The notes under the pieces were generated by a model. That model was not told the origin of the DNA and ran no database searches. It was given only the letters and a program-made list of their open reading frames with translations. Positions 759 through 63,637 of a stretch of 64,000 nt of DNA are shown one piece after another. The stretch is from a virus. Position numbers and translations under genes: made by a program. The stretch is taken from the UHGV virus genome UHGV-1351772; one strand, written 5' to 3'. The first letter of the stretch is position 1. The number at the start of each line of letters is the position of its first letter.

Positions 759-780
759 AAAAAATAATAGAAAGAAAAAA

Positions 781-14812: not shown

Positions 14813-14870
14813 TTCTATTCTCCTAAAGGTAATAAACTGGTCGTTAAAAGATTACAATGTAATCTCACTA

Positions 14871-14886
14871 AGATAATATCTATCTG
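14871..14886. promoter_or_regulatory. palindromic promoter-like motif AGATAATATCTATCTG with AT-rich box
   Basis: Consensus copy in intergenic region between minus-strand genes. Confidence 0.45.
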
Positions 14887-14919
14887 TGATTATTTTTAAT
14901 AGAAAAAAAAAAGAAAAGG

Positions 14920-37745: not shown

Positions 37746-39845
37746 TTACTCAATGATAGTCGCGGCCACCGTATTGTCGTATAACGACGCCGGACGTTTA
37801 CGTGACGTGTAGAAACGCACGTTGTCCAGGTTTTTCTGTTGGCCTTCGAATAACAACATCGGTACAGCTGAACGCATCGCAATCAACGTGTTGTGATCCT
37901 CGAAACGTTTGCCATCCATCACATCAGCATCTTCACTATCAAACCCAACCGCCGGGAAAGGATTGGTCGGTGATTCAACGCGTGATATCGCCAGCATAAT
38001 CGCGATGTGTGTCATCGGAATACCACCGAGCTTACGTTGGATATATTTAAACACATCAAATAACGCGTGCGTACATTGTTTCTCCGTAGCACCGCGCATC
38101 TGAACCAGTGTCGTTGGTTTTACCTTACCTGACTTCTTGCTCAAACGCATTGAGTCATCAGAGAACTGTTCGAAAGTATCCGATTTATCAGACGCAACCG
38201 AACGAAGTTTCAATTCTAACCCTGCTACAAACTCCGCCATAGATTCAGACCGATTCGTATAAATTAGTATCGGCCAACTCGGTTTCCATCCTTTCAGGGG
38301 AATCCGTACCAGCTTCTTCGACGGGAAGGTAATGTTATCGCGCTGTTTCAGGAAGAAATGTAAGAAGGCTTTCGAGAAGTTACCACAAACCCCCATACGG
38401 ACGTCAATGGGATCTTCGGCCAACACATTCCCAGCTTCATCCAACCGCAAAAAGGTCAGTTCGTTAATCTCCGGCAATGCCGTTTCGTCGATCACTTCCA
38501 AATCATCGTGATACGCGATTTGGCTGATTTCAGAATAGACTTCATCGGAAATAACGAGTTGGTATTCATCCCAATTACCGTACTGCGGTTTCTCCCGTAA
38601 ACTCAATCCTTTTACGGAGTTGTGTTTATACTCACCAAGATAATCCCGCATTCTTGGAGTCAGCACCAGATTCAGCAGATAGCGTAAGAAGTCCAGGTGT
38701 TTCGTTGAGAGAATCCCCTGTGTACCCTTTTCAGATATCGAGGTTGAGGCCAAGTGGCCTGGTGACGTTCCCGGCGAAAGGTTATAAATCAAATCACCCA
38801 TGCAGGTTGCACAAATGCTTTGACGCGCCATCCCCTTACAACACATCGCGGTACGAAACTCAATAGGTTTGCCTAAGACTTTCTCAAACTCCCCTTTCTC
38901 GAATCGTAACCACGGGCCACCCACACCTTCAAAACGATAACGCATTCCCACCATCGCATCGTACTTCTTACGCTCCAGTTTACTTTCTGTAAACGTGTGG
39001 CGATGAACGTGATGTGTACCACAATCGTCGTATTCGAAATACATTAACACGTTGGCTGCTAACTGTAGCTTACGTGACGCATATTCCGCATCGGCGATTT
39101 TATCGGTATTATACAGGTGAGTACGTGACGTCGCTCCCGCTTCTTTCAGACGGCTAATTACAGAATGTAGACCCGTAAAGAAACCTTCCCATACCTGGTT
39201 GGAATAAACGCGAGAATCAATCTCTGATGTTTTCCCACGTATATACGCCTGAAGAACCTGGTTCATTTTGATGGTCTTATCCAAGACCGACATCACCACA
39301 GGGTTTAAACGAAGTTGTGGGTCTTTGAAGATATCTTCGATAAGAAGATACGCTTCTTCGATCATATCCCGACCTTCTTCGTCGTACCCAGTAGGATACA
39401 TTTGTGCCCACTGATGAATCTGCGTAAAATTTCGGTGTTGGTAAATTTCCATCATCGTATCGTAGTCAATCGTGACGCAATACGACAACAGATTTTTCAC
39501 CGATAAGTTAAACGCATCCGCATAGACGTGCTGCTGCAATAAATAGCGGGTATCTGCTAAATCCACACCCGCTTTACGTGCTGCCACAGCTGCCAATGAC
39601 ATAAACTTCAGATGTGCGTCATCTGTAGCGGTGTCGCCATGTTTATACGCCATTTGCGAACTGATTGGGATCTGCGGATAAAATCGTGTTAGCCCCCAAT
39701 AAGGCCAACTGATTTTAATGTGGCGTCCTGACATGTTTAAGGTTATCCCGTCATCGAACGTCACTTCATATCTGCCGCGCAATAGCCACACCTGATCCGA
39801 GTTCAGTTTACACAGATCACGCACGTGAACTGGAGTGCCCTTCAT
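37746..39845 (-). CDS. multisubunit RNA polymerase beta-prime-like subunit, C-terminal portion
   Basis: CATCMGDL...ISEKGTQGILSTKHLD resembles bacterial beta-prime CAKCYGRDL...IGEPGTQLTMRTFHIG region; immediately downstream of and coupled to the beta-like gene. Confidence 0.6.
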   Translation of the reverse strand: MKGTPVHVRDLCKLNSDQVWLLRGRYEVTFDDGITLNMSGRHIKISWPYWGLTRFYPQIPISSQMAYKHGDTATDDAHLKFMSLAAVAARKAGVDLADTRYLLQQHVYADAFNLSVKNLLSYCVTIDYDTMMEIYQHRNFTQIHQWAQMYPTGYDEEGRDMIEEAYLLIEDIFKDPQLRLNPVVMSVLDKTIKMNQVLQAYIRGKTSEIDSRVYSNQVWEGFFTGLHSVISRLKEAGATSRTHLYNTDKIADAEYASRKLQLAANVLMYFEYDDCGTHHVHRHTFTESKLERKKYDAMVGMRYRFEGVGGPWLRFEKGEFEKVLGKPIEFRTAMCCKGMARQSICATCMGDLIYNLSPGTSPGHLASTSISEKGTQGILSTKHLDFLRYLLNLVLTPRMRDYLGEYKHNSVKGLSLREKPQYGNWDEYQLVISDEVYSEISQIAYHDDLEVIDETALPEINELTFLRLDEAGNVLAEDPIDVRMGVCGNFSKAFLHFFLKQRDNITFPSKKLVRIPLKGWKPSWPILIYTNRSESMAEFVAGLELKLRSVASDKSDTFEQFSDDSMRLSKKSGKVKPTTLVQMRGATEKQCTHALFDVFKYIQRKLGGIPMTHIAIMLAISRVESPTNPFPAVGFDSEDADVMDGKRFEDHNTLIAMRSAVPMLLFEGQQKNLDNVRFYTSRKRPASLYDNTVAATIIE

Positions 39846-42082
39846 TATTCATCGCCCCTTTTCATTTTCACCAATTCAAACCCTTCACAGCTGTGAATGT
39901 TTTTCATCATCCTGTCAATCTGTGAATCCCCTAACGGGAATTTATTTCGGTCTACCAGTGGACCCGGATTAGACGGGGTTTGAGATCGATAAAGCCCTAC
40001 TAAAATCTCACGATGCACCGCAGGGTTATTTGCCCTGTCGTGAACTTCTTCGTAGTTACCTGGACCATAACCCGCTAACAGTCGTTCTTCCGAAGGACCA
40101 GCCCATTTTAGCGTTTTATAGTTTATCGGATACGAACCGCGGCCTTGGTTAGACGCGTCTATCGTACCCAGATAATTCAGATACATTGACGAGATACTGG
40201 AAAACTCACGACCTGTTTTATCCAGACGTAATGTTTCCACACCACCTACGTAAAACTCATTTTTTGTCCATTCCTGTTTACCATCGAAATTAGTAATCAG
40301 GAGTTTGGATTTACGCGGTTTAAATTCACCCAACCGTTCACTGATATCGACTGGCGTGTCGTCAAGTTCATGTGGTAAGTAAATACGGATTGTAAAATCG
40401 TAAATCTCTTTGAAAAGTTCGCGTTGTAAATCCTCCGTAGGATGCGTTGCCTGTAGTGTATTGGCCCATTCTGGATTATAGCGTGATAGATAATCCATCA
40501 GGATTTCCCAGCTCTCGCTGATACGTCCTTCATCCAGCAATGGTTTGAGACGCATTTTCAACTGTTCAGACGCAGCTGACCAATACATGTGGAATAATGC
40601 TGCATAAGTCGAGCGACGAATTACAGCGTTCATCGAACGTAAAACGTGAACACGTTCACCGAATTCGTTAATCGGCATCTGTTCAACGGGTAATACACGT
40701 CCAACAATCCCTTTCGTACCCGAGCGGTCGGTAATCTTAGACGACACCGTTACCGGGATCGGATAACGAACAGCAATACGAATGGTATACGTGTTGATGG
40801 GATCGCTGAGTCCACGTTGTACTGGCGAGGTCAACTTAGAAAGAATCTGCTGACTGACATTTTCTTTACCGTATTCACCACGACGAATTGCTTCATCAAT
40901 CACCACGCGTATCTCTTCACGAAACTCGTGATAGACCTCGTACGTTTCAGAAGCGAACGCTTTTTCCAACAACACACACGCTTTCGGCGACCAGATAATA
41001 TTTTTGTCACGGGACATCGAGAAATAGAATCGTACGATGGCATTGTAATAGTCTTTCAATGCTAATGCGTATTTATCCAGTTCTCGTTTGTTCTCTTCGG
41101 TACAAGAAATATTGTTAGCACCATTCGCGCAAGACGTTTCATCACGCCACACCTGGATATCGACGATACGTGTACCGCTACGCTCCATCAGTTCTTTGTC
41201 GCCTGCAAGACGTGCTTTATAATGGACGGGATCGGCATCCACATATTCGCAACTATCAAAGAACGGAGAGACGTGTTGAGTTTCCCCAAGCGACGCATCA
41301 ATTGCACCGTAAAGCTCATCGAAACGACGCGATGCAATGACCAACCCATCGTCACGAATAGCCTCTCCTACATCCGGGAAATACCGTGGGACGCGATTAC
41401 CGTTCGGATCGATGTAACCGTAAGTATCCAGTAAAAACTCGTCTTCACGTAGCGTCTTTTCAACGATTTTCAAACCATAACCGTGGAGTTTTTGGGCGGC
41501 GTACTCAGAGATGGTGTAAGAATCCTCGATGATATCAGAATGCGAAATCGTAACGGTTGGTAGCACGACGCTATCGGCGTACTCGCCTTCCACCATACAC
41601 GACATCGTTGTAAGGATTTCATCCTTTTCCAACTGATCGGTTTCGCCACGTAAAATACTACGCAGTTTCATCGACTCACGTTTCTCAGATGAGAAGATGT
41701 TGTCGTGGTTAGTATAGAAGTTAATCTCTAGCACATCTATCATGGTTTTACCGCCCTTCATTTCTGCACGGCGGAAGAAGATAGCATGTTCTAACGCTTT
41801 AGAATCCCCACGACGACCATAACGTGTAAACGTCGCGCGGCGCTGACGACCGTCTTTGGTCATATAGTGGCAGATGCTACCGGGATCTTCTACAACGTCG
41901 TTGAACAGAAAATCGTGGTAGTTTATATCTGCCCCTGTAAAATGCGGCGATGGTTCAGGATTGTCGATAGGGACCGCAGACTTCATATGGTTGCCTACCA
42001 TCGATGCCCTTGCACCTGATACTTCGGTGATATTAATCTCACGGTCAGCCACACTGCTCATTAGCTCTACTGGCGTTTTCAT
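39845..42082 (-). CDS. multisubunit RNA polymerase beta-like subunit, C-terminal portion
   Basis: DRSGTKGIVG...MP matches beta GDK..GRHGNKGV...MP motif; PDVGEAIRDDGLVIA matches PNVGEAALSKLDESGIV. Confidence 0.8.
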   Translation of the reverse strand: MKTPVELMSSVADREINITEVSGARASMVGNHMKSAVPIDNPEPSPHFTGADINYHDFLFNDVVEDPGSICHYMTKDGRQRRATFTRYGRRGDSKALEHAIFFRRAEMKGGKTMIDVLEINFYTNHDNIFSSEKRESMKLRSILRGETDQLEKDEILTTMSCMVEGEYADSVVLPTVTISHSDIIEDSYTISEYAAQKLHGYGLKIVEKTLREDEFLLDTYGYIDPNGNRVPRYFPDVGEAIRDDGLVIASRRFDELYGAIDASLGETQHVSPFFDSCEYVDADPVHYKARLAGDKELMERSGTRIVDIQVWRDETSCANGANNISCTEENKRELDKYALALKDYYNAIVRFYFSMSRDKNIIWSPKACVLLEKAFASETYEVYHEFREEIRVVIDEAIRRGEYGKENVSQQILSKLTSPVQRGLSDPINTYTIRIAVRYPIPVTVSSKITDRSGTKGIVGRVLPVEQMPINEFGERVHVLRSMNAVIRRSTYAALFHMYWSAASEQLKMRLKPLLDEGRISESWEILMDYLSRYNPEWANTLQATHPTEDLQRELFKEIYDFTIRIYLPHELDDTPVDISERLGEFKPRKSKLLITNFDGKQEWTKNEFYVGGVETLRLDKTGREFSSISSMYLNYLGTIDASNQGRGSYPINYKTLKWAGPSEERLLAGYGPGNYEEVHDRANNPAVHREILVGLYRSQTPSNPGPLVDRNKFPLGDSQIDRMMKNIHSCEGFELVKMKRGDE

Positions 42083-42110
42083 TTTAATGCTCCTTTAGGT
42101 TGAATCAGTA

Positions 42111-42126
42111 GGATAATATCTATCTC
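42111..42126. promoter_or_regulatory. palindromic promoter-like motif GGATAATATCTATCTC with AT-rich box
   Basis: In divergent intergenic region, upstream of ATG 42146. Confidence 0.5.
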
Positions 42127-42145
42127 ACTTATTTTAGGAACGATT

Positions 42146-43908: not shown

Positions 43909-45615
43909 TTACTCGCCGAATGCACCAAAACCAGACACTGGCGCAGGAGTTGACATATCGCTGCCGCCAAAGCTACCGAAGCTACCCAGGCTCGTAGGTG
44001 CAGACACAGGGGCAGTTGGAATATTCGACAGGATATTCGAACGGTTCTGACCACGGTTGAATTCTTGGTACCCTTCTTCCACTTTATTCATCAGCTGCGC
44101 TGTTTCTGCAGCTAACTGGTTCGTGTACTGAAGGTCAGTTGTTGTACCACAATGCAGACGTGCTTTCATGAACGACGCATGAGTATAATACTCAGGCAGC
44201 TCACCATCGATTTCAATTTCAATACGTGAAACCACCCCGACGATACATGTTACGGTCATCTTACAACGAATACGGTTGTGTTTAGTCACTTGCAAGAATA
44301 CGCCTTGTAAGTCACTTAAGAAGCGACGCGCTAACACATCCGGTAATCCGTCTTCAGTTAATGCCCCAACGTTGTGTTTTGACACTTGCAGCAGAGGAGG
44401 TGTTGCAATATCCGCCATACGGTTATCGTAGAAGAAAGTCACTTCACCGATAAGGTTACGAGTGACCACAGGCCCCAGTAACATGGCTAAATCAAATGCC
44501 ACCAACGAACCCTGAGTAGAATAGTTATTACGTCCTACCCAATCATCGGTGCGTTCAATTTCACCAAAACCACGACGAGCCGCGACAGCCAGCGAGTGCG
44601 CAATTGCAGCGTCCACGTCTTCGGGATTAATCACCGCATTACGCAAGTCGCACAGTTTGAATGCTGCACGGTTCGCAACGTTCCAACCGCTAGTCATATC
44701 GGACGTGGCGTTGGATATGGCTGTTCTAAAAGCCTTCACCAACTCGTAACTGTTGAAATTACGCATCACACCGATCTGGCTAAGTTCAGATTCTACCCCA
44801 AGAGAATGATCTCCTGCGAAGAAACTGTCTACTGCGCTCAACTCCGTTTCAATCCCCATGGTATTAATGAAGGAATTGGAGATCGCTGTCACGAAAGATT
44901 CTGGTCGGGTTAATTGACTAGACATCAACTGTGGCGCACGCTGGCAATTAGCGGAGATAACGGTGTTGTTATCCAGCTCAATCTGCTCACCAGCTTTCAC
45001 CACTTTACGTACCATATCAGCTGCTTTCGCGGTAGAAATAACGTCAATGGTGTGCTCTACATAGCTGTCTGCGGTTAATGTCTTGGACAACACATAGTTG
45101 TCTATCAAACGGAAGGAATCCGGGTTGATACGACGTCCACCGAACGCATCAGTGATATACGTACATTGTAACCCGTATATTTCGTTGATATACAGAACCA
45201 TGTCGTCCGGCAGGTGATTAAACATGGATCGCTCTGCCTGGGACGTATACCCGGAAACAACATAACGCGTTTCCTGAGTCCGTGTGTCGTTTAACGAGTT
45301 CGAAACAATAATCGCCACGAAGTTATACACACCAGTATCGCGAGAATTATACGCAAATTGGATTGGTTGCGATTCGTTATCACTCACGTTAATGAATGGA
45401 CGTTCAATGCCTGTTGGGGTATTGTCGAAACCCACAATCTGCCCCAGGGCTTCTTGATAAGCCCGAGAACCTGTTGCTTTATCACCGTGTTCTGCAACCA
45501 CATCCACTAACTCATCCAAAGCGTGCTGCGATTCAAAGAACCCAATACGACGACGAATCTGCTCTGGGATTTCGTACACTGGATACATTTGTAGTTTCAA
45601 AAGTTTCATTGCCAT
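43909..45615 (-). CDS. hypothetical protein with C-terminal FG-repeat tail
   Basis: 568 aa; C-terminus ...SLGSFGSFGGSDMSTPAPVSGFGAFGE. Confidence 0.55.
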   Translation of the reverse strand: MAMKLLKLQMYPVYEIPEQIRRRIGFFESQHALDELVDVVAEHGDKATGSRAYQEALGQIVGFDNTPTGIERPFINVSDNESQPIQFAYNSRDTGVYNFVAIIVSNSLNDTRTQETRYVVSGYTSQAERSMFNHLPDDMVLYINEIYGLQCTYITDAFGGRRINPDSFRLIDNYVLSKTLTADSYVEHTIDVISTAKAADMVRKVVKAGEQIELDNNTVISANCQRAPQLMSSQLTRPESFVTAISNSFINTMGIETELSAVDSFFAGDHSLGVESELSQIGVMRNFNSYELVKAFRTAISNATSDMTSGWNVANRAAFKLCDLRNAVINPEDVDAAIAHSLAVAARRGFGEIERTDDWVGRNNYSTQGSLVAFDLAMLLGPVVTRNLIGEVTFFYDNRMADIATPPLLQVSKHNVGALTEDGLPDVLARRFLSDLQGVFLQVTKHNRIRCKMTVTCIVGVVSRIEIEIDGELPEYYTHASFMKARLHCGTTTDLQYTNQLAAETAQLMNKVEEGYQEFNRGQNRSNILSNIPTAPVSAPTSLGSFGSFGGSDMSTPAPVSGFGAFGE

Positions 45616-45645: not shown

Positions 45646-47358
45646 TTATTGATTAAACCATGCTACTTCTTCGCATTTCTTTCTGTTTTGAATTAACAGA
45701 AATTCTGCTAACATGTTCTGAAGTCGCGGATGAGGTGAATAGTCCAACATCACTGTCCCACACCGTAACATTCTGGCTGCTTCCGGTGTTGCCCTGAGAT
45801 TGAAGTTGAACGGTGCAATATGTTCACGAACCAACAAGCTGAGAGAATCCTTCAATGTTGATTGTTCGTAAGTATTACGATGCTTACGGTATGCTTGTGG
45901 ATAATATCTATCCGTTTTTATTTTAATCTCATTATCGATTGGCTCGATAGGATACCCGCCATTTAGCGGTGCCCGGATCATTTCACAACTTAACAACTGT
46001 GCAATCTCAGGCATTCCGTAATAGATGTAAACGGCTTGGGATATACCCATCGCGTTCTTAAACGCTTCTGCGTCGATTTCCTTGTATGTACGACGATCTG
46101 CAAATCGGTGCATCACTGCCGCCACCAACCATTCGTAGAGTTCGTAGAAAGGATATTGATGGTTAATGTTGATGGAATCTATCAACACTTTCACATCAGC
46201 GGGAGCAATATCGAGATTCAAAGCACGCACCGCACGACGATAGTCATTAAAGAATTCTTGAGTACGAACGAATTCCTTCATTGGTGCTTTAGTCCGAGCT
46301 TGAACCAGGTCAATCGACGAAGTTTTCCCCTTCTCGCCGTTGAACATGATTTTCTCAGGATTCGCTTTTAGCATCACGTTTTGACCGGAAATTTTTCCCG
46401 CGAAGCCCGTTTCAATTTCTTGCCGAATATTGAAATACATCCCCGCCACGATGTTGTTTTCAACCATCGTACCTGGTGGTAGTTCGGCACCGATTAACTT
46501 CATCGCAATTAAACGGATAACGGCGAACGCTATGATGTATTCCTCTACCATATCCGTACCGTAGCCGCAGATAGATGCCAGGACGGTAAGGTTTGCAGTA
46601 TTAGGTCCTTTACTCCCCCCGTCCTGAACTTTCGAAATCACCGACACTAAAAACTCACGCAACTTTGTAATGGCTGGCAGTGTAGCAATCTCGGTATCAG
46701 ACAACAGTTCCATGCAGTAGGTCAGGTTATAAACACTTTTGCGCTTCGACTCAACAGAAGCACGTGTTGCAGGAAAAGCGTCCAAAATCAAGAATACGGG
46801 AATAAACGGTTTTGTCATCAAAGACAAAATCACCAATTCGTAATAATCTTGTACGATATACGTCATCTCTTTTGGATAATTCGACGACATCTCTTCGTAC
46901 GTTTCGTGGACGTTTTGAGGAATCCACACCGAACCGTGTGGATAAAGCTGGCGGAATCTATCTGCGTGATGAAATTTAGCAATTCTCGCGACGAGCGTGG
47001 GGACGTGTTCACGAATAACTTCTGGGGGTTCATTAGCTAACAACTCTAATTCTTCGTAAACTGAAAACAGTTCGCTTTTCTCTTCAGGTGTTAAAGTTGA
47101 CCAATAACGCTCGATTTCCATGAACATGATTTTATCGTGCGTTACGATCTGTCCGAAACTATCGCGTACGTCTGGCACATTCACGTCTTTACGTCCATTT
47201 CGGAAACCATTAAACGCGACCTCTTTTTCGCCGTACTTTATCACTAAACGGTCACGATTCTTTTCAATGCGCATTTTAAAATCTCCAGGAATAACATAGT
47301 CGTCCACTAAGATAAAATCTATCTCAGATAACTTCGACTGTATTCTACACACATACAC
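45646..47358 (-). CDS. hypothetical protein
   Basis: 570-aa ORF. Confidence 0.55.
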   Translation of the reverse strand: MYVCRIQSKLSEIDFILVDDYVIPGDFKMRIEKNRDRLVIKYGEKEVAFNGFRNGRKDVNVPDVRDSFGQIVTHDKIMFMEIERYWSTLTPEEKSELFSVYEELELLANEPPEVIREHVPTLVARIAKFHHADRFRQLYPHGSVWIPQNVHETYEEMSSNYPKEMTYIVQDYYELVILSLMTKPFIPVFLILDAFPATRASVESKRKSVYNLTYCMELLSDTEIATLPAITKLREFLVSVISKVQDGGSKGPNTANLTVLASICGYGTDMVEEYIIAFAVIRLIAMKLIGAELPPGTMVENNIVAGMYFNIRQEIETGFAGKISGQNVMLKANPEKIMFNGEKGKTSSIDLVQARTKAPMKEFVRTQEFFNDYRRAVRALNLDIAPADVKVLIDSININHQYPFYELYEWLVAAVMHRFADRRTYKEIDAEAFKNAMGISQAVYIYYGMPEIAQLLSCEMIRAPLNGGYPIEPIDNEIKIKTDRYYPQAYRKHRNTYEQSTLKDSLSLLVREHIAPFNFNLRATPEAARMLRCGTVMLDYSPHPRLQNMLAEFLLIQNRKKCEEVAWFNQ

Positions 47359-51801: not shown

Positions 51802-53759
51802 TTACCCCGCCAATTTTAATAATTCCGAGTCAAGCGCGATACCGGCTTCCAAGTCCTCTTCAGTATCCTGGAAGAAACTGTTTATGTTGCTGATATTCTC
51901 GTTATGGAGAATCATGCAACTCGAAACCTCGTCCACATTCGTGCTTGACATAAACCCGTTGTCTGGGCGATAAGCCATGCCCAGTTCCATTTCAATCTGG
52001 TCGATTGCCAATCTACATTGTAACTGGTCGCCATCGAAATCCTGTTTGTCCACTCCATTCCTTTTGGAGCAGGTGTGCAATGACACCCTCCCATGCTTTC
52101 ACATGGGCACAGACTATATCATAACCGTAGGTATTGCTACCCGTAGGTCTCCCCCACTTCGCCGCTAAACTAAGCAGCTACTCTACTCGGTTTTACCCTT
52201 TCGATAGTCGTTGAACGATTTTCATCGCTGCTGGTTATCCATTATCACAACCCTTAGCATTATTGGTTAGCATAGGTTATCTTACGAATTGTTTCTGACT
52301 TTCGCCACCCTGTCGGGATCGTAAGCTTTAGGGGTTTCCAGCAATTCGAGGGATACGCACTAGAGGTTTCCCGTCTAGTGGGCCAGTGTTTAGCATTAGG
52401 TGCTTTGATGACGCGATCAGAAATACGCAGAGAACATTGTGTTACATCTGTCAGTACCGCTGAGATGAACAATGTCTGAATAGAAAGTTGAACCAATGTT
52501 GGGTTACGCAGAACTTCCAACATTAAGCCGAATCCGCCGGGGGATTCTTTAATCAACTCATTAATAATTTCATGTACCAACGGTACATACTGCATTGCCG
52601 CAAATGCAATGATGCGCTCACATTGTCGAGGTGTATAATCACGTCGACCTAACTTGTTCTCAATGTGAACACTCGCCAACGGAACCAACCAACGCCAAGG
52701 CGCAATAACTTTCAACGCATCATGAGGTTCAGAGATAGGAGAGATAGTCACACGTCCGCCCCACGGTACGTGTGTTGACCCGAGTTTTGCCCGATAGAAC
52801 CCAGGTTTACCTTCCATCACTTCCTGACGATGGTCAATATAGAAATACGCAAGCTGTCGATTCGCTTTGATCGCACGACGAATAATAAATCGTGGTTCGA
52901 TACGGCGTGCATTCGTGTACAACAACGCCACATTTTTTACTGCGTCGATAGCGCTGGTATAAACCGGATCGATAAAAATACCTTGTCGGCGCTCCTCCGT
53001 AACGATCAGTTTTGATGAAATAATCGGAAGGTGTCTTGGAAAGAATGAGAACGATTGTTCCTGAAAGAACTCACGCCATTCTAAGCGCACGCGCTCACTC
53101 TCATAACGGTTATTTTTCGTTGGTGGATAAATCTCCTTCCAAGCTTCCGGAGACGTAAGGATATTAAAGACGGTTCGATGGTGGTCGATAAAGTTTCGAA
53201 TTCCCCGTTCGAAGCCATGTTCGCCGAGTATTCTTTTCACCACGCGAGCACGTGTTCCCTCGTCCTTTTCTGGATGGTAGTACGGATCGATTAGCCACAG
53301 CAGTAAATCAGACCCGCGTTCTACCGTCACTTTGTTACGATTAAATTTTTTCAGCTTAGAGCCAAAGAAGGCATTAAAGAGAGACCAAAAACGTGGATTG
53401 ATAAAGTTACCCATCTCATCGGGAGCGCGTAACCAGACATCAGACGTAATCCGATGTTCAGAAACAACATGTCCGCAATGTGGGCAACGAAGCCCAAGAT
53501 TATAACGATGGGTAATAGGTGATTCGCAGGTCAGACTGCAAATAGGAGCCGAGTTGAGTGTTTCATCAACGATTCGGTTTTGGAGTATTTGGTTAATCAT
53601 CTCCGACGCTTCGATGGTATCCATCGTTGCAGCAACGTCATTGATAATAATCGGTGGTTTGTAGCCTTTTTCCTCCGCTTCTTGTATACAGTCACGTAAC
53701 ATCTTGTCGTGACTAATTAGTCGCCCCGAAATCCCGTAATATTCTAGTTTATGTTCCAC
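51802..53759 (-). CDS. multisubunit RNA polymerase beta-prime-like subunit, N-terminal portion with catalytic DFDGD; interrupted by a group I intron (exon 1 about 52446..53759, exon 2 about 51802..52087)
   Basis: Exon 1 has zinc ribbon CSLTCESPITHRYNLGLRCPHCG, GKPGFYRAKLG...GGRVTISP (cf. [20 protein letters not shown]) and LRNPTLVQLSIQ (cf. [12 protein letters not shown]); exon 2 has LHTCSKRNGVDKQDFDGDQL (cf. [18 protein letters not shown]); ORF-track splits this into two ORFs and reads through the intron. Confidence 0.75.
52088..52446 (-). other. group I self-splicing intron (ORF-less), boundaries approximate within about 10 nt
   Basis: On the gene strand, in order: P-like gaattgctggaaac (52331..52350), Q-like aaccagcagcg (52226..52236), R-like gttcaacgactat (52204..52216), S-like gatatagtctg (52110..52120), then a P9-like hairpin cccatg-tgaaag-catggg; P3 (ctgg/ccag) and P7 (gacta/tagtc) pairings possible. 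Confidence 0.7.
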
Positions 53760-53843: not shown

Positions 53844-55691
53844 TTAGAAAGTCGGACGCCAGTCAGTTGCAGCGAAGGACATACCGAAATCGCTACCAAA
53901 TGCGTTAGGACCGCTACCAGACAGCGCGAAGTTCTCATTACCCGTGTTAACAAACACAGAGTGAGTGAGGCTGTTCGCTGCGGTAACACCATTCACCTGG
54001 AAGTTGCAGTTTTCAGTAATGTATTCCACCAGTGCTTTACCAAACAGCGGATTGATCGCCAGGTCAGACGCTTCACCCGTTACCTGCGGCTGTTTGCTAC
54101 CGAACATGGACGCAGCCATTTTCAGCAGGTACAGACGCTGGTCACGCGCATTCAGATAGCGGTGAGAGTAGGACTGTGCACTGATGTAGTCGATCGCATC
54201 GCGTTGGTTATCACCCACTTTAGTCAGAGCGGAAACCAAGTCCATATCCTGGAAGCTGCGTTTCTGGCTGTTGCTGAAATACTGACCAGAGATGGTCGGG
54301 CAACCGGCAATAACAACGTGTTTGCACTCGAAGTTGGTGACATTGCCCAGCAGTGCTTTGAAGCGAGTGCTGAACTTAGTCGCGCCGTTGCTGGCCATGT
54401 TATCCAGGATATTGAACAGGGTGTACAGTGCGTTGGTGTTACCCATCCCGATTTCGCTCAGGAGAGTAGACAGGCCACCGATACCGTTACCTGCACGATG
54501 GTTCACCACCAGGGCCGCAGTCGGGTTAGCGAAGGTGTCCAGGCATTTCTCGATAACTTCACGGTTACCGTCGATTTTGCTCAGGTCAGGTTTTTCGCTG
54601 CCCCATTCTACATACTCCAGAACGCGGGAGAAGCGGCGATCGGTTTTGTTCAGCGACTGCATGAAACGTTCACGCCAGCCACCAATAGTGGCGATTTGTG
54701 CGAACGCGGCCAGTTCAATCAGCTGACGCTCGATAGGTGCCATTGCCCCAGAGGACTGAGAATCCATCAGGGAAACAACCACTTCGGCTTCCAGCTGACG
54801 CAGGTCCTGAGTACCGTTAGTCAGGGTTTGAGGTTTACCTTTATGGCGGAGGTTGATGTAACCAACACCTGCAACGCTCGGATAATTCTGGAGGCGTTCA
54901 GAAGAGAACAGCGTCGGGTTATTATCGTTGTTGCCAGTGCGAGTGTGGTCAACCACAACCATCAGGTCAGCACGTTGTGCAGAACCGTTAACGTCAGTTA
55001 CAGAACCTTCTTCAACTACGCTGACTTGCGCGGTGAAGCGATCAGAACGGGTCATTTTCAGGTAGCCCAGGTAGCCGGAATGACGACCGAAGATACCCAA
55101 TGCAATCTGGCCCATGAGCTGGTTAGCCCATTCTTCGTTCATGGTTTTACCCAGTTCCGGTACGCAGTTCATTACCATGAACTGTACGCTTGGCAGATTG
55201 TGCTGAGTTGCAATCTGGTTAGTGATGTTGTTCATCACACCTTCTTGACTGAACAGCTGCGCCAGGGTGTAGTAGTTTTCTTTACCGTTGATTTCGTAGA
55301 AACGGATGGACTGGCCATGTTCAAAGAACAGGATACCATAGAGCCATTCGTTATGGTTATCGCCGGACGGACCAGCCACGTATGCAGCAGAACCCATTTC
55401 AGAGTTGATGCCGTCAATAACACCCCAACGGAAGTTACGCAGGTATGTGTTCTTCTCCGCCATCTTCTCAATCAGGCTAGTGAACTGAGAAGCAGTGGAC
55501 ACGAAAGACATGTATCCGAAAGCTTTATCGAAAGTAGAGATGTTTTTAGACATCCCACCAAAAGCGTTGGCCGCATTGGTATTATCCACAGTAGCAGCTC
55601 CCGCGCCACCGAAAGACGGAATTGGATCTGCAGCGGAACCAGCAGCACCAGTCACAACGTCGTTTTGATTGTCAATAAACTCTTTAGCCAT
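53844..55691 (-). CDS. abundant 615-aa protein; candidate phage nuclear-shell protein (chimallin), alternatively a virion structural protein
   Basis: Strong codon bias; AAGGA RBS; two tandem consensus promoter motifs upstream; own terminator; size and extended N/C tails are compatible with chimallin, but no direct sequence verification is possible here. Confidence 0.4.
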   Translation of the reverse strand: MAKEFIDNQNDVVTGAAGSAADPIPSFGGAGAATVDNTNAANAFGGMSKNISTFDKAFGYMSFVSTASQFTSLIEKMAEKNTYLRNFRWGVIDGINSEMGSAAYVAGPSGDNHNEWLYGILFFEHGQSIRFYEINGKENYYTLAQLFSQEGVMNNITNQIATQHNLPSVQFMVMNCVPELGKTMNEEWANQLMGQIALGIFGRHSGYLGYLKMTRSDRFTAQVSVVEEGSVTDVNGSAQRADLMVVVDHTRTGNNDNNPTLFSSERLQNYPSVAGVGYINLRHKGKPQTLTNGTQDLRQLEAEVVVSLMDSQSSGAMAPIERQLIELAAFAQIATIGGWRERFMQSLNKTDRRFSRVLEYVEWGSEKPDLSKIDGNREVIEKCLDTFANPTAALVVNHRAGNGIGGLSTLLSEIGMGNTNALYTLFNILDNMASNGATKFSTRFKALLGNVTNFECKHVVIAGCPTISGQYFSNSQKRSFQDMDLVSALTKVGDNQRDAIDYISAQSYSHRYLNARDQRLYLLKMAASMFGSKQPQVTGEASDLAINPLFGKALVEYITENCNFQVNGVTAANSLTHSVFVNTGNENFALSGSGPNAFGSDFGMSFAATDWRPTF

Positions 55692-55740
55692 TTTACTTAA
55701 TCCTTATAAGGTTTAATACAATTGTAGTGTTGGTTCACGT

Positions 55741-55754
55741 AGATAATATCTAGC
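55741..55754. promoter_or_regulatory. palindromic promoter-like motif AGATAATATCTAGC with downstream GATATTTT
   Basis: First of two tandem copies in the divergent region between 55691 and 55900. Confidence 0.55.
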
Positions 55755-55820
55755 TAAGATATTTTAGAATACACGTAAAACACACATAGCTTAAAATGAT
55801 TAACTACCGAACCATCACAT

Positions 55821-55834
55821 AGATAATATCTTTC
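55821..55834. promoter_or_regulatory. palindromic promoter-like motif AGATAATATCTTTC with downstream GATATTTT
   Basis: Second tandem copy, 80 nt from the first. Confidence 0.55.
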
Positions 55835-55899
55835 TCAGATATTTTTCAATGTGAGTGAGACTGTGACCGTTTCCTATGTGTAACCCCAAGGAGTAAGTC

Positions 55900-56961
55900 A
55901 TGTTCAGTCAAGCCGAGTTAAACCAAGCAGCCATAAAGGGTAAATTCGAAGACCCTTCCGCTATACAATTGGTCAGTGCCGTAAAAAATAATAATCAGCG
56001 CATTCGCAACTATTTAGAGTCCATTCAAACCCGTGTTGTTTCAGGCCATCTGGTACTCAAAATCTTAGCGGCTATCGGATATGCGGGTGAACCCAGCTAC
56101 GAAGAGATCGAGTGGGCATGTCGACGCAAGCTTTCCGATATCGGTAATGCGCTACACCTAACTTCTGTGGGGGAGTATGGTCAAGTTTTCAACGGGATCT
56201 TTATCGAGGGGCAAGATGAGATTATTTCACTCGTCGCACGTCCTATTGATCCTGAACTGTCTTTTCGTGACTACACACCTGCAGTTTATCTTTATCACGA
56301 GTACACGAATCTTAACTGGAGTCTCGGGAACGGCAAACCCCGTGGCATCAGTATTATTGAAATTAATCTGGTTGCACTGCTATGGCAATACGTTCTTGCA
56401 GAACAATACTACCGAACGCAATCCGAACCGATTAACCGTGTAGTTTACGCGCAACGACACATCATTTACCGTATGTTACCCAGCTACATGAATATTGCTT
56501 TTTTAAATATTCATCGCGCTGTCGCAACGGGTAAAGAAGTCGAACCCGAAACGCCACTTCGTGTTATCCCTACACCACCTTTGCGTGAACTTTCAATTAA
56601 ACACGCAACGCAAGTTTGTAAAGCACTTCGTGCAGGTAAACCTTTACCTGGTGTGGTCATGGCACACATTCCACAGTTCTTTGATGATCCGACACACCCT
56701 ACCACTGCGGTAGACCGCATCCTTTTTAAAGACCCAGGCTCAACCATTCAAGGTAGTTGGCATCGAAACATCGTGAACTGGTATTGGGCGTTGTTCTGCT
56801 TACAGTTCGACAATTCGAGTATGAGCAAATACAAATCCAATTTAATGGTGCGTATAGCCAGATTCGAAGATGCGAAGATATTGGAAAAACTTACACGGTC
56901 GGCTAGAAATTACTATCGACACGAGTTAATTTTACCATTATATCACGCATTAGAAAATTAA
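55900..56961 (+). CDS. hypothetical protein
   Basis: 353-aa ORF downstream of the tandem motifs; terminator hairpin at 57014..57040. Confidence 0.6.
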   Translation: MFSQAELNQAAIKGKFEDPSAIQLVSAVKNNNQRIRNYLESIQTRVVSGHLVLKILAAIGYAGEPSYEEIEWACRRKLSDIGNALHLTSVGEYGQVFNGIFIEGQDEIISLVARPIDPELSFRDYTPAVYLYHEYTNLNWSLGNGKPRGISIIEINLVALLWQYVLAEQYYRTQSEPINRVVYAQRHIIYRMLPSYMNIAFLNIHRAVATGKEVEPETPLRVIPTPPLRELSIKHATQVCKALRAGKPLPGVVMAHIPQFFDDPTHPTTAVDRILFKDPGSTIQGSWHRNIVNWYWALFCLQFDNSSMSKYKSNLMVRIARFEDAKILEKLTRSARNYYRHELILPLYHALEN

Positions 56962-62821: not shown

Positions 62822-63356
62822 GACGAAGCTCCATCATCGCAATTTGACCTCTCGGTGTAAGGTGTGGTTCAATCTCAACCGTTAAATAAGGATTGAAAAC
62901 TTCCCCGACAGCCTCAAACCCTTCCCTAACTAAAGATTCGACCTCACACAACAAACCGTCGTAACAGTCATCAAACGCCAACCCCAGGAGATATGTCTTC
63001 GAACGTAGGACACAAACCTCACGTTCCTGTTCTGTTGCAACTTCACCAAACGCTGAACGATGGACAAGAACCTGACGACACTTCATGGTTTTAGGTGGTT
63101 TTACACGACCATCTGCAACCAGTAAATTCGTTAGGGTGTAAGCATCCGTGAACTGGTCTAAAAAATCCGGCAGCCGACTATTCGGCATTCTGGGAATTGA
63201 GTGAAAAATATCCTCTAATGCTGTGTGTATCAGTTGTACAGTAACGGCCTGTTTTTCTTTTACTGTCATCCGCAAAGCGGAAGCGTAGGATGTTTTTTCC
63301 ATCGCTGCCCAGAAGTTATGATAAACTGTAGCTGGATTGAAGTGTATTTTGACCAC
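62730..63356 (-). CDS. hypothetical protein (start possibly internal)
   Basis: 208-aa ORF; overlaps next gene start by 92 nt. Confidence 0.4.
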   Translation of the reverse strand: MVKIHFNPATVYHNFWAAMEKTSYASALRMTVKEKQAVTVQLIHTALEDIFHSIPRMPNSRLPDFLDQFTDAYTLTNLLVADGRVKPPKTMKCRQVLVHRSAFGEVATEQEREVCVLRSKTYLLGLAFDDCYDGLLCEVESLVREGFEAVGEVFNPYLTVEIEPHLTPRGQIAMMELRLGEDIRFIHYRNCFPDKRYDPDYLTRSRDV

Positions 63357-63589
63357 GTTTGCACAACTCCATTTTTATAAGAGAAAGGACTACTGTGGTC
63401 ACGACCCAACGCACTGATCATAAACCACGCATCCGAACCAAAATATCTTTCTGCCACCTTCAACCGATCTCCAGGTAAATTGTGAACACCCGGAAAAATC
63501 AGTTCTTGTATCGCTTCTAAAATCTCCTCAGGACGATAGCGAACTGAATGGCTAGAGTCTAGCAGAAAACCAAATAGCACGCGCGTCAT
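63266..63589 (-). CDS. hypothetical protein
   Basis: 107-aa ORF. Confidence 0.4.
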   Translation of the reverse strand: MTRVLFGFLLDSSHSVRYRPEEILEAIQELIFPGVHNLPGDRLKVAERYFGSDAWFMISALGRDHSSPFSYKNGVVQTWSKYTSIQLQFIITSGQRWKKHPTLPLCG

Positions 63590-63622
63590 TAACGTTAATA
63601 CTCCTTTAAGGGAACATCATTA

Positions 63623-63637
63623 AGATAATATCTATAC
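63623..63637. promoter_or_regulatory. palindromic promoter-like motif AGATAATATCTATAC with downstream AAATATT
   Basis: Consensus copy in divergent region upstream of ATG 63756. Confidence 0.5.

What the first reader, a model, noticed from the sequence alone, without database searches (positions are those of the whole stretch)
55741..55834. Recurring palindromic intergenic motif AGATA-N-TATCT with a downstream AT-rich box: candidate phage promoter consensus
Near-identical copies occur only in intergenic DNA: 744..758, 14871..14886, 42111..42126, 55741..55754, 55821..55834 and 63623..63637, with weaker variants near 7300 and 47408. Each has an AT-rich element about 6-8 nt downstream (gatatttt, aatatt, ttatttt). 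The core is an inverted repeat, so it could act in either orientation or bind a dimeric factor. Two tandem copies sit in front of the codon-biased 615-aa gene. In phiKZ-like phages a virion-packaged RNA polymerase recognises conserved AT-rich early promoters, so this may be the equivalent signal here.
Basis: partly seen in the sequence, partly recalled or inferred. Interest (0 to 1): 0.65.

Follow-up and report, generated by a model that had tools for sequence, protein, structure and literature searches.

The report
Jumbo-phage early promoter motif
The recurring AGATA-N-TATCT motif is real and is most likely the set of early promoters, read on the minus strand by the RNA polymerase packaged in the virion, of an uncultivated SPN3US-like jumbo phage; this type of signal is already known in phiKZ-like phages, so it is a clean example and not a new mechanism.

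Summary
The motif is real. Exact AGATANTATCT occurs 4 times against 0.03 expected. A 36-nt matrix finds 9 strong sites, all on the minus strand, 8 of them in the ~7.6% of the window that is intergenic.

Read on the minus strand the consensus is -32 Tc.AAaa.atttcAGATAgATATTAtcTa.gtG(+1), followed 24-54 nt later by a ribosome-binding site and ATG.

The window is colinear with Salmonella phage SPN3US. All 9 sites have positional counterparts there. SPN3US has 23 sites genome-wide, all co-oriented with the gene downstream (0.2 expected by chance).

The sites precede the non-virion RNA polymerase genes and the 615-aa gene. I show by fold that the 615-aa gene is chimallin, the phage-nucleus shell protein. 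No site lies directly upstream of a virion-polymerase gene or in front of the main structural-gene blocks.

The consensus nearly equals the mapped AR9 early promoter, AAATATATATTAT-(6N)-G+1. The palindrome is not required: only 13 of 32 sites are perfect palindromes, and a second, non-palindromic subclass is even better conserved.

Verdict: virion-RNA-polymerase early promoters, a new member of a known kind. Transcription starts and timing are inferred, not measured.

The parts
55731..55766 (-). Proximal promoter of the chimallin gene (class 1). Minus-strand sequence TAAAATATCTTAGCTAGATATTATCTACGTGAACCA. Predicted +1 is G at 55736; the 5' UTR is 45 nt.
   Evidence: Matrix score 44.0 bits. Counterpart in SPN3US at 15696-15731. 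Conserved in 7 phages.
55811..55846 (-). Distal promoter of the chimallin gene (class 1). Minus-strand sequence AAAAATATCTGAGAAAGATATTATCTATGTGATGGT. Predicted +1 is G at 55816, 80 nt upstream of the proximal start.
   Evidence: Matrix score 43.3 bits. Counterpart in SPN3US at 15603-15638. Conserved in 7 phages.
53844..55691 (-). The 615-aa gene under the tandem promoters. It is a chimallin (ChmA/PhuN, phage-nucleus shell) homolog and the ortholog of SPN3US_0022.
   Evidence: The AlphaFold2 model has pLDDT 62 and pTM 0.68. The top 9 Foldseek hits in the PDB are all chimallins (E 8e-20 to 1e-16, TM 0.55-0.68); the next hit has E 0.17. No match by sequence in Pfam or PDB.
51802..53759 (-). Non-virion RNA polymerase subunit gene, ortholog of SPN3US gp23. 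It lies directly downstream of chimallin and is interrupted by a group I intron (about 52054-52405).
   Evidence: tblastn against SPN3US 17719-19287 in two pieces. Rfam RF00028 at 52090-52407(-), 56.9 bits, E 9.4e-14.
42101..42136 (-). Promoter (class 1) of the non-virion RNA polymerase beta and beta' genes (39845..42082 and 37746..39845). Predicted +1 at 42106; 5' UTR 24 nt.
   Evidence: Matrix score 40.7 bits. PHROG 3295 'RNA polymerase beta subunit'. Counterpart in SPN3US at 28958-28993, upstream of gp34.
47300..47335 (-). Promoter (class 1, core AGATTTTATCT) of gene 45646..47274. Predicted +1 at 47305; 5' UTR 31 nt. It is preceded on the minus strand by an intrinsic terminator at 47387-47366.
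   Evidence: Matrix score 39.2 bits. Terminator. Counterpart in SPN3US at 23799-23834, upstream of gp30.
45889..45924 (-). Intragenic promoter inside gene 45646..47274, 279 nt upstream of the next gene (43909..45615). Predicted +1 at 45894.
   Evidence: Matrix score 28.7 bits. Counterpart in SPN3US at 25215-25250, inside gp30. The codons GAT AGA TAT TAT are identical in 6 of 7 phages. CR5 changes the amino acids but keeps ATATATTAT. G at +1 in all 7.
14861..14896 (-). Promoter of gene 14261..14812. Predicted +1 at 14866; 5' UTR 54 nt. The transcript would begin with the hairpin GAGATTAC-att-GTAATCTT.
   Evidence: Matrix score 41.8 bits. Counterpart in SPN3US at 56283-56318, where it is class 2. 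Hairpin energy -5.5 kcal/mol.
7302..7337 (-). Class 2 promoter (AAAAAGATTTCAGATATATATTACCTAGGTGAGAGT) of the small gene 7114..7257. Predicted +1 at 7307; 5' UTR 50 nt.
   Evidence: Matrix score 25.9 bits although it was not in the training set. Counterpart in SPN3US at 65402-65437, upstream of gp66. The exact 22-mer occurs only in this phage clade in IMG/VR.
734..769 (-). Promoter downstream of the major capsid gene, driving gene 2..646 (ortholog of SPN3US gp76, which in SPN3US is followed by the non-virion polymerase beta N-terminal fragment gp77). Predicted +1 at 739.
   Evidence: Matrix score 30.7 bits. Counterparts in SPN3US at 72673-72708 and 72475-72510. gp77 identity from PMC5105663.
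63613..63648 (-). Promoter (class 1) of gene 63266..63589 and the run of small genes that follows it. Predicted +1 at 63618; 5' UTR 29 nt.
   Evidence: Matrix score 37.4 bits. Counterpart in SPN3US at 7379-7414, upstream of gp9.
789..812 (.). Bidirectional intrinsic terminator hairpin between the capsid gene stop (828) and the promoter at 734-769. The order on the minus strand is terminator, then promoter.
   Evidence: 10-bp stem with 6 G-C pairs and T-runs on both strands.

Best explanation
The motif copies are promoters of an uncultivated SPN3US-like (Chimalliviridae-type) jumbo phage. They fire on the minus strand of the window. They are most likely the early promoters recognised by the multisubunit RNA polymerase that is packaged in the virion and injected with the DNA.

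Anatomy on the minus strand:
- an A/T-rich -30 element with an invariant A at -29;
- a -20 element, cAGAT;
- an almost invariant -15 to -7 core, A(G/T)ATATTA(T/C);
- an invariant G taken as +1, 6 nt after the core.
A 24-54-nt leader, a Shine-Dalgarno sequence and the ATG then follow at seven of the nine sites. The distal chimallin copy and the intragenic site have longer leaders (125 and 279 nt).

Proposed sequence of events. The injected polymerase binds this roughly 34-bp asymmetric signal, melts the AT-rich -10 region and starts at or within about 2 nt of the G. This transcribes chimallin, the non-virion polymerase subunits and many small genes. The non-virion polymerase made from these transcripts then takes over the remaining genes.

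Shown here: the motif, its strand specificity, its position relative to genes, its conservation across genera, which genes it precedes, and the absence of a sigma-70 architecture.

Inferred, not shown: the exact start site, early timing, and which enzyme recognises the signal.
For: 1. Not chance. Exact core: 4 copies against 0.03 expected. Matrix: 9 strong sites in the window, while shuffles gave 1.3 hits above the much lower 8-bit threshold. In SPN3US: 23 sites against 0.2 in simulated genomes.

2. Directional. 9 of 9 window sites are on the minus strand and 23 of 23 SPN3US sites on the + strand. Each points the same way as the gene downstream. Seven of the nine window sites lie 24-54 nt upstream of an ATG, and SPN3US sites lie 26-261 nt upstream of an annotated gene.

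3. Transcription-unit layout. Intrinsic terminators lie immediately upstream of sites 734-769 and 47300-47335.

4. Conservation. The window is colinear with SPN3US 7029-73370 at about 50-80% protein identity, and all 9 sites have positional counterparts. The tandem pair before chimallin is conserved in 7 phages of 5 genera while the flanking spacer diverges. A 22-mer of class 2 occurs 19 times in 18 stretches of IMG/VR; all but one (a 7.4-kb fragment) lie on 150-245-kb contigs, four of which match SPN3US, ChrisDB, Huxley and Caitlin in length.

5. The intragenic site keeps identical synonymous codons, GAT AGA TAT TAT, in 6 of 7 phages. In CR5 the motif survives an amino-acid change.

6. Gene logic. 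In SPN3US the sites sit in front of or just upstream of every non-virion polymerase gene (gp22-gp23, gp34/35, gp76-gp77). No virion polymerase gene (gp42, 218, 240, 241, 244) has a site directly upstream, and none lies in the main structural blocks at about 117-160 kb and 202-229 kb. The 615-aa gene is chimallin.

7. Match to mapped early promoters. AR9: AAATATATATTAT-(6N)-G+1. Class 2 here: AGATATATATTAC-(6N)-G, identical in 11 of 13 bases with the same spacing (PMC5312081). Reviews say every RNAP-encoding jumbo phage has such an AT-rich motif centred near -10 upstream of its early operons, and that it was confirmed wherever it was tested (PMC7598289). phiKZ and 201phi2-1 early promoters are conserved at -10, -20 and -30 (PMC11512511).

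8. Independent support for the start site and strand. In class 2, 84% of 25 distinct sites are followed by a hairpin beginning at +1 to +3, against 8% of shuffles. The sense strand folds better than the antisense in 24 of 25, with 19 G-U pairs.

9. No sigma-70-type -35/-10 pair coincides with any site scanned.
Against: - No 5'-end, time-course, rifampicin or in vitro transcription data exist for this phage or for any SPN3US-group phage in the library searched. Start site, class and enzyme therefore rest on analogy.
- In class 1 the hexamer at -12 to -7 is TATTAT, a 5 of 6 match to the sigma-70 -10 box at the canonical position. Some host-polymerase activity cannot be excluded from sequence alone.
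- In 201phi2-1 not all non-virion polymerase genes have an early promoter next to them (PMC11512511). The gene-logic argument is therefore suggestive and not a rule.
- Only 64 kb of the roughly 221-kb source genome was examined directly. The genome-wide statements come from SPN3US.
- The paper said to predict these motifs in every such phage (Lavysh 2016) could not be read.
Confidence: 0.78

Rival explanations
1. Middle-class promoters. They are phage promoters, but are read by the newly made non-virion RNA polymerase (possibly with a phage factor) and not by the injected virion enzyme.
For: Timing was not measured. In phiKZ the chimallin gene has both an early and a middle start site (PMC8244752), so one copy of the tandem pair could belong to a later class. 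In 201phi2-1 some non-virion polymerase genes are driven by middle promoters (PMC11512511).
Against: The non-virion polymerase cannot make the first copies of its own subunits, yet this is the only conserved signal found in front of all its genes. Published middle and late promoters of this phage family are weak or short and are not detectable bioinformatically (AAA-N3-TAC-like, TATG; PMC7598289). This motif is about 34 nt long, strongly conserved, and near-identical to the mapped AR9 early consensus. Both tandem copies carry the same consensus.
Confidence: 0.08
2. Host sigma-70 RNA polymerase promoters that rely on a -10-like TATTAT box, used to start infection with the host enzyme.
For: TATTAT lies at -12 to -7 relative to the conserved G, the canonical -10 position, with A-11 and T-7 present in class 1. 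Host independence has not been shown for the SPN3US group in the library searched.
Against: There is no -35 hexamer at 16-18 bp and no TG extension. The sigma-70 scan finds nothing coinciding with the sites, and the counts do not exceed shuffles. Class 2 has C at -7 (TATTAC) yet is the most conserved subclass. Conservation spans -32 to +2, including positions irrelevant to sigma-70, among them invariant A-29 and G+1. Related phages that have been studied transcribe independently of host polymerase (PMC7598289, PMC13282480).
Confidence: 0.06
3. Operator for a dimeric phage or host DNA-binding protein. The AGATA-N-TATCT palindrome would be bound by a dimer and act in either orientation, on its own or overlapping a promoter (for example to shut off early transcription).
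For: 13 of 32 sites are perfect 5+1+5 palindromes. The chimallin promoters carry an extra inverted repeat, AATATCT-N5-AGATATT. SPN3US encodes a putative transcriptional regulator (gp101) that itself lies behind a class 2 site.
Against: Orientation is strictly tied to gene direction in 32 of 32 sites. The conserved flanks are asymmetric (-30 A-tract, -20 cAGAT, G+1). 19 of 32 sites break the palindrome, and the non-palindromic class 2 is the better conserved. The distant relatives CR5 and Phobos keep (A/T)AT(A/T)TTTAT but not the arms. AT-rich -10-like cores are partly self-complementary by composition.
Confidence: 0.04
4. Hairpin promoters of the N4 type. The inverted repeat would extrude as a DNA hairpin that the virion polymerase recognises.
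For: N4 also injects a virion polymerase, and that enzyme recognises small hairpins (PMC4496689, listed; the details are from my own knowledge). The core is an inverted repeat.
Against: With a 1-nt centre the core can form at most a 4-bp A-T-rich stem. Folded as single-stranded DNA, the class 2 site gives 0 kcal/mol and class 1 sites fold through different, non-conserved pairings. The polymerase here is a multisubunit beta/beta' enzyme, not the N4 single-subunit type.
Confidence: 0.01

Closest known systems
Early (virion RNA polymerase) promoters of Bacillus jumbo phage AR9: AAATATATATTAT-(6N)-G+1 (PMC5312081)
   Same: The core is almost the same: class 2 here, AGATATATATTAC, matches in 11 of 13 bases. 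The 6-nt spacing to a conserved G is identical. Both occur in tens of copies per genome, upstream of operons that include the non-virion polymerase genes, in a phage with two multisubunit RNA polymerases.
   Different: AR9 has uracil-containing DNA and no phage nucleus. Its start sites were mapped by dRNA-seq and primer extension; here nothing is mapped. The motif here has an additional conserved -20 cAGAT and -30 element, and two subclasses.
Early promoters of phiKZ (28-32 copies) and 201phi2-1 (PMC8244752, PMC10914365, PMC11512511)
   Same: An AT-rich extended -10-like box plus upstream T/A-rich elements, conserved at -10, -20 and -30. Leaders are about 30-40 nt. All point the same way as the genes. 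The chimallin gene has two start sites and lies directly upstream of a non-virion polymerase gene.
   Different: The consensus sequence differs from phage to phage. In phiKZ the second chimallin start uses a middle-type motif, whereas here both copies carry the same consensus. The phiKZ data are experimental.
[quoted passage not shown] 2016, as summarised in PMC7598289)
   Same: This is exactly that kind of object: a conserved AT-rich motif upstream of presumed early operons, found by sequence analysis.
   Different: The 2016 paper could not be read, so I cannot say whether its SPN3US-group logo is the same. The phage in this window is an uncultivated relative with at most 75% nucleotide identity to any deposited phage.
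Bacterial sigma-70 -10 element, TATAAT at -12 to -7
   Same: In class 1, TATTAT occupies -12 to -7 relative to the conserved G. The phage polymerase is a distant homolog of bacterial RNA polymerase.
   Different: There is no -35 element and no TG extension. Class 2 has C at -7. Conservation extends over about 34 nt. No sigma homolog is known for these enzymes (PMC13282480).

Membership tests
Jumbo-phage virion-RNA-polymerase early promoter (phiKZ/AR9 type) | The phage encodes two sets of multisubunit beta/beta'-like RNA polymerase genes, one virion and one non-virion. | tested here: met
   Window genes 39845..42082 (PHROG 3295, Pfam Rpb2_6), 37746..39845 and 52260..53759 are orthologs of SPN3US non-virion subunits gp34, gp35 and gp23. 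Gene 30486..31787 is the ortholog of virion subunit gp42.
Jumbo-phage virion-RNA-polymerase early promoter (phiKZ/AR9 type) | A highly conserved AT-rich element of about 10 nt centred near -10, with a conserved start about 6 nt downstream. | tested here: inconclusive
   The sequence part is met: A(G/T)ATATTA(T/C), then 6 nt, then an invariant G in 32 of 32 sites. A 5'-terminal hairpin begins at that G in class 2. That the G is the transcription start is inferred, not measured.
Jumbo-phage virion-RNA-polymerase early promoter (phiKZ/AR9 type) | Tens of copies per genome, each pointing the same way as a downstream gene and lying upstream of it. | tested here: met
   9 sites in the 64-kb window, all minus strand. 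23 sites in the 240-kb SPN3US genome, all on the + strand and 26-261 nt upstream of a + strand gene.
Jumbo-phage virion-RNA-polymerase early promoter (phiKZ/AR9 type) | Drives early genes, including those for the non-virion polymerase. | tested here: inconclusive
   By position, yes: the sites precede chimallin-gp23, gp34/35 and gp76-gp77, and none lies directly upstream of a virion polymerase gene or in the main structural blocks at about 117-160 kb and 202-229 kb. The temporal class was not measured.
Jumbo-phage virion-RNA-polymerase early promoter (phiKZ/AR9 type) | Transcription is independent of host RNA polymerase and of new protein synthesis, and the virion enzyme recognises the promoter directly. 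| not testable with these tools
   This needs infection experiments with rifampicin and chloramphenicol, or in vitro transcription. No such data for the SPN3US group were found.
Sigma-70 promoter | A -35 TTGACA-like hexamer 16-18 bp upstream of a TATAAT-like hexamer. | tested here: not met
   No predicted sigma-70 pair coincides with any site in the three regions scanned, and the counts do not exceed shuffles. Positions -35 to -30 show no TTGACA signal.
Symmetric operator of a dimeric DNA-binding protein | Two-fold symmetric conservation and independence of orientation. | tested here: not met
   Only 13 of 32 sites are perfect palindromes. Class 2 is asymmetric yet more conserved. The flanks are asymmetric. 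32 of 32 sites are oriented with the gene.
N4-type hairpin promoter | A stable 5-7-bp stem with a 3-nt loop as the recognition element (from my own knowledge of N4). | tested here: not met
   DNA folding gives 0 kcal/mol for the class 2 site and no shared hairpin among class 1 sites.
Intrinsic terminator | A G+C-rich stem-loop followed by a T-run. | tested here: not met
   The motif has no G+C-rich stem. True terminators are separate elements next to two of the sites.

The most novel reading that the evidence does not exclude
The class 2 sites may be a distinct regulatory module that has not been described. Each has an almost invariant 29-nt promoter, TTTCAGATATATATTACCTAGGT-G, and its transcript begins exactly with a stem-loop whose structure is conserved while its sequence varies. 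The stem-loop would mark a subset of the earliest mRNAs, for example by protecting their 5' ends from host RNases or by acting in export or handling from the early infection vesicle. The near-identity of this core with the AR9 early promoter would also point to a deeply conserved, sigma-independent promoter code for jumbo-phage virion polymerases across hosts as distant as Bacillus and enterobacteria.
Probability: 0.2. Interest if true: 0.55.

Novelty: new member of a known kind. Interest (0 to 1): 0.33.

Why it matters
- It provides a testable promoter map for the SPN3US/Erskinevirus/Machinavirus group of nucleus-forming jumbo phages: predicted starts to within about 2 nt, 9 sites in this window and 23 in SPN3US. 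I found no start-site data for this group.
- It identifies which genes the injected polymerase probably reads first: chimallin, the non-virion polymerase subunits, and many small genes of unknown function that are candidate host-takeover genes.
- It corrects the polarity and removes the "palindrome/dimer" idea, which matters for anyone designing reporters or engineering these phages.
- The close match to the AR9 early promoter, and the 5' stem-loops on one subclass, are modest leads on how sigma-less multisubunit virion polymerases find promoters and how early mRNAs are handled.
- It does not reveal a new kind of system.

Tried and rejected
- Gapped versions of the palindrome with N4, N5 or N6: 0, 2 and 0 hits. 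The spacer is a single base.
- Reading the motif on the + strand as promoters for the + genes 42146 and 55900. Rejected because the conserved flanks, the G and the RBS/ATG all fit the minus strand, and no site lies before any other + gene.
- Sigma-70 scan: nothing at the sites.
- Sequence searches for the 615-aa protein in Pfam, in PDB with phmmer, and in PDB with a 7-sequence profile: no hits. Only the fold comparison identified chimallin.
- RNAalifold on an ungapped alignment of class 2 leaders found only a trivial helix, because loop lengths differ. I replaced it with per-sequence folding against shuffles and against the antisense strand.
- Literature: Lavysh 2016 and Ceyssens 2014 are not held. 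A text search for GATATTATC found only unrelated primer sequences. There is no SPN3US start-site or rifampicin paper.
- I did not scan IMG/VR with a 14-mer of class 1, because chance matches would swamp the result.
Full report
**1. What is in the sequence**

The two copies named in the finding read TAGATAATATCT on the + strand, at 55740-55751 and 55820-55831. The palindrome has a single central base. AGATANTATCT occurs 4 times (14871, 55741, 55821, 63623) against 0.03 expected from 100 shuffles. Versions with 4-6 central bases give 0, 2 and 0 hits. One-base variants sit at 744 and 42111.

The flanks around the copies are conserved in one orientation only. Read on the minus strand each copy looks like aAAATAt-N4-5-aGAT-AGATATTATCT-taNt-G. 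A Shine-Dalgarno sequence and an ATG of a minus-strand gene follow at most of them.

A 36-nt matrix built from eight copies recovers them and adds a ninth, 7302-7337, that was not used to build it (25.9 bits). All nine strong hits are on the minus strand. Shuffled windows gave on average 1.3 hits above the far lower 8-bit threshold. Two weaker hits pass that threshold: 11.8 bits at 3115-3150(-), and a 14.2-bit + strand hit that is the palindromic shadow of the 14861-14896 site.

Eight of the nine sites lie in intergenic DNA, which is about 7.6% of the window. The ninth, 45889-45924, lies inside gene 45646..47274.

The real site nearby is 47300-47335.

**2. Site table (minus strand; +1 is the conserved G)**

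| Site | Predicted +1 | Downstream gene | Distance to ATG | Note |
|---|---|---|---|---|
| 734-769 | 739 | 2..646 | 26 nt to a 16-codon mini-ORF (713..663) that precedes it; 93 nt to the gene's ATG | follows a terminator |
| 7302-7337 | 7307 | 7114..7257 | 50 nt | class 2 |
| 14861-14896 | 14866 | 14261..14812 | 54 nt | |
| 42101-42136 | 42106 | 39845..42082 | 24 nt | |
| 45889-45924 | 45894 | 43909..45615 | 279 nt | intragenic |
| 47300-47335 | 47305 | 45646..47274 | 31 nt | follows a terminator |
| 55731-55766 | 55736 | 53844..55691 | 45 nt | proximal of tandem pair |
| 55811-55846 | 55816 | 53844..55691 | 125 nt | distal of tandem pair |
| 63613-63648 | 63618 | 63266..63589 | 29 nt | |

Intrinsic terminators lie directly upstream, on the minus strand, of two sites: 812-789 and 47387-47366. 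This gives the classic order of terminator, promoter, RBS and gene. No sigma-70-type -35/-10 pair coincides with any site scanned, and the counts do not exceed shuffles.

**3. Where the window comes from**

The closest deposited phages are Erwinia phages Asesino and phiEaH2 and Salmonella phage SPN3US. Nucleotide identity reaches at most about 75%, over short stretches only. An identical 615-aa protein is encoded on two IMG/VR contigs of 220,786 and 225,000 bp, so the source is an uncultivated jumbo phage.

tblastn of the window's proteins against the complete SPN3US genome (fetched) shows perfect colinearity, reverse-complemented, with SPN3US 7029-73370. The window contains:
- the major capsid gene (828..3122);
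- the non-virion RNA polymerase subunits, orthologs of gp23, gp34 and gp35;
- one virion polymerase subunit, the ortholog of gp42.
Subunit assignments are from PMC5105663.

**4. Comparative test**

The window-derived matrix finds 23 sites in SPN3US. All are on the + strand, and each lies 26-261 nt upstream of an annotated + strand gene. Two further minus-strand hits are palindromic shadows of + sites. Simulated genomes give 0.2 hits.

Every window site has a counterpart at the orthologous position:

| Window site | SPN3US site | SPN3US gene |
|---|---|---|
| 63613 | 7379 | gp9 |
| 55811 and 55731 | 15603 and 15696 | gp22 |
| 47300 | 23799 | gp30 |
| 45889 | 25215 | inside gp30 |
| 42101 | 28958 | gp34 |
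| 14861 | 56283 | gp55 |
| 7302 | 65402 | gp66 |
| 734 | 72673 (plus an extra copy at 72475) | gp76 |

The intergenic region upstream of the 615-aa gene was aligned for seven phages of five genera (Seoulvirus, Erskinevirus, Machinavirus, Derbicusvirus and the window phage). Both copies stand out as conserved islands, with (G/T)AT(A/T)TTAT, then 6 nt, then G invariant or nearly so, while the spacer diverges.

The intragenic site encodes D-R-Y-Y-P. Six of seven phages use exactly GAT AGA TAT TAT, although nearby Arg and Tyr codons vary (CGT/CGC, TAC/TAT). CR5 changes the amino acids to E-I-Y-Y but keeps ATATATTAT. All seven have G at the predicted +1. This is the signature of a DNA signal superimposed on a coding sequence.

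**5. Two subclasses, and the palindrome**

Pooling the 32 sites gives the consensus -32 Tc.AAaa.atttcAGATAgATATTAtcTa.gtG(+1)A. A-29 and G+1 are invariant, and so are several core positions.
- Class 1: cAGATAGATATTATCT-taGT-G.
- Class 2: TTTCAGATATATATTACCTAGGT-GAGAGT.

Class 2 is not palindromic. Even so, its exact 22-mer occurs 19 times in 18 stretches of IMG/VR. All but one of these (a 7.4-kb fragment) lie on 150-245-kb contigs, and four of the contigs match SPN3US, ChrisDB, Huxley and Caitlin in length.

Only 13 of 32 sites carry the perfect AGATATTATCT. The classes interchange at orthologous positions: window 14861 is class 1 and SPN3US 56283 is class 2. They therefore serve the same function. 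Together with the strict orientation, this rules out the reading 'either orientation / dimeric factor'.

Folded as single-stranded DNA, the class 2 site gives 0 kcal/mol and class 1 sites share no common hairpin. An N4-like hairpin promoter is also excluded.

**6. Which genes lie behind the motif**

In SPN3US the sites precede gp22-gp23, gp34/gp35 and gp76-gp77. That covers every non-virion polymerase gene. No virion polymerase gene (gp42, 218, 240, 241, 244) has a site directly upstream, and none lies in the main structural blocks at about 117-160 kb and 202-229 kb.

The 615-aa gene has no match by sequence in Pfam or PDB. An AlphaFold2 model built from 14 homologs (pLDDT 62, pTM 0.68) hits only chimallins in the PDB. 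The top nine are 7sqq, 7sqv, 7sqt, 7sqr, 7squ, 7sqs, 8igg (two chains) and 8fne, with E 8e-20 to 1e-16 and full-length alignments. The next hit has E 0.17.

So the tandem promoters drive the phage-nucleus shell protein, and a non-virion polymerase subunit gene follows directly. phiKZ has the same arrangement: gene 54 is followed by gene 55, and gene 54 likewise has two start sites (PMC8244752). Chimallin and the non-virion polymerase must be made before the non-virion polymerase exists. That points to the injected virion enzyme.

**7. Comparison with mapped promoters**

- AR9 early promoters are AAATATATATTAT-(6N)-G+1. phiKZ and phiR1-37 also start 6 nt downstream of their AT-rich element (PMC5312081). 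Class 2 here is AGATATATATTAC-(6N)-G: 11 of 13 bases identical, with the same spacing.
- The review PMC7598289 states that such a motif can be found bioinformatically upstream of early operons in every RNAP-encoding jumbo phage. It adds that the motif was confirmed as the early promoter wherever transcripts were profiled, whereas middle and late promoters cannot be predicted from sequence.
- phiKZ and 201phi2-1 early promoters are conserved at -10, -20 and -30 (PMC11512511). The span here, -32 to +2, has the same layout.

**8. An independent hint on the start site**

In 25 distinct class 2 sites from all fetched genomes, the 28 nt starting at the predicted +1 fold into a hairpin that begins at +1 to +3 in 84% of cases, against 8% of shuffles. 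Mean energy is -5.9 kcal/mol against -1.74 ± 0.32.

The stems differ in sequence between sites (GAGATT/AATCTC, GAGAGTT/AACTCTC, GATAGA/TCTATC, GAGCGTTA/TAACGCTT). The sense strand folds better than the antisense in 24 of 25, with 19 G-U pairs. This fits an RNA 5'-terminal stem-loop and supports both the strand and, to within about 2 nt, the start. Class 1 leaders do not show it (21%). The 25 sites include orthologs, so they are not fully independent.

**9. Conclusion and limits**

The best explanation is that these are early promoters for the virion RNA polymerase, read on the minus strand (confidence about 0.78).

| Rival | Confidence |
|---|---|
| Middle-class promoters read by the non-virion polymerase | 0.08 |
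| Host sigma-70 promoters using the -10-like TATTAT | 0.06 |
| Operator for a dimeric protein | 0.04 |
| N4-type hairpin promoter | 0.01 |

No start-site, timing, rifampicin or in vitro data exist for this phage group in the library searched. The paper said to contain the original predictions (Lavysh 2016) could not be read.

This kind of signal is established, so the finding is a new member of a known kind.

Noticed in passing
window 52054-52407 (-), within the gene 51802..53759: A group I intron (Rfam RF00028, 56.9 bits against a gathering score of 50, E 9.4e-14) interrupts the non-virion RNA polymerase subunit gene, the ortholog of SPN3US gp23. SPN3US has no intron there; the two exons align to SPN3US 17719-19071 and 19072-19287.
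   Followed up: partly
window 7307 and 14866 (minus strand, predicted +1); L010-L027; SPN3US 56313, 94258, 114005, 165706, 223296: Transcripts from class 2 promoters would begin with a stem-loop starting at +1 to +3 (84% of 25 distinct sites against 8% of shuffles). The structure is conserved while the sequence varies, G-U pairs are frequent, and the sense strand is more stable than the antisense in 24 of 25. Possibly a 5'-end protection or handling signal. Class 1 leaders lack it.
   Followed up: partly
window 53844-55691 (-): The 'codon-biased 615-aa gene' is a chimallin (phage-nucleus shell) homolog, recognisable only by fold (Foldseek E 8e-20 to 7sqq). Its SPN3US ortholog is locus tag SPN3US_0022, whereas PMC9365700 names 'gp244' as the SPN3US chimallin and PMC5105663 uses gp244 for a 240-aa virion polymerase fragment. 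This looks like a numbering discrepancy in the literature; I did not resolve it.
   Followed up: partly
window 55873-55882 (+), about 25 nt upstream of the ATG at 55900: The block TTCCTATGTG is conserved in the divergent intergenic region, and its TATG is invariant in all 7 phages aligned. It resembles the phiKZ late-promoter element T(-3)ATG(+1), so it may be the non-virion-polymerase promoter of the + strand gene 55900..56961. A TATG also lies 25-36 nt upstream of the ATGs of 11537..13045(-), 31774..32628(-) and 63756(+). Enrichment was not tested.
   Followed up: partly
window 45889-45924 (-): A promoter copy is embedded in a coding region (D-R-Y-Y-P). Synonymous positions are frozen across five genera, and the Arg codon AGA is kept where neighbouring Arg codons are CGT/CGC.
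   Followed up: yes
window 663-713 (-): A 16-codon mini-ORF (MEKIQFKLKICVIIKI*) with a strong AGGAG ribosome-binding site lies between the promoter at 734-769 and gene 2..646, whose own ATG lacks a good RBS. The same arrangement is seen in the related contigs L016 and L017. It could be a leader peptide or involve translational coupling.
   Followed up: no
window 55731-55766 and 55811-55846 (-): At the two chimallin promoters only, the -30 box and the core form an additional 7-bp inverted repeat, AATATCT-N5-AGATATT (DNA fold -3.4 and -3.8 kcal/mol, z -3.3 and -4.5). It is partly present at SPN3US 15603 and absent from most other sites.
   Followed up: partly
window 789-812: A perfect 10-bp bidirectional terminator hairpin (GTCTAAGCCC-CGAA-GGGCTTAGAC) with T-runs on both strands lies directly after the major capsid gene.
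   Followed up: no
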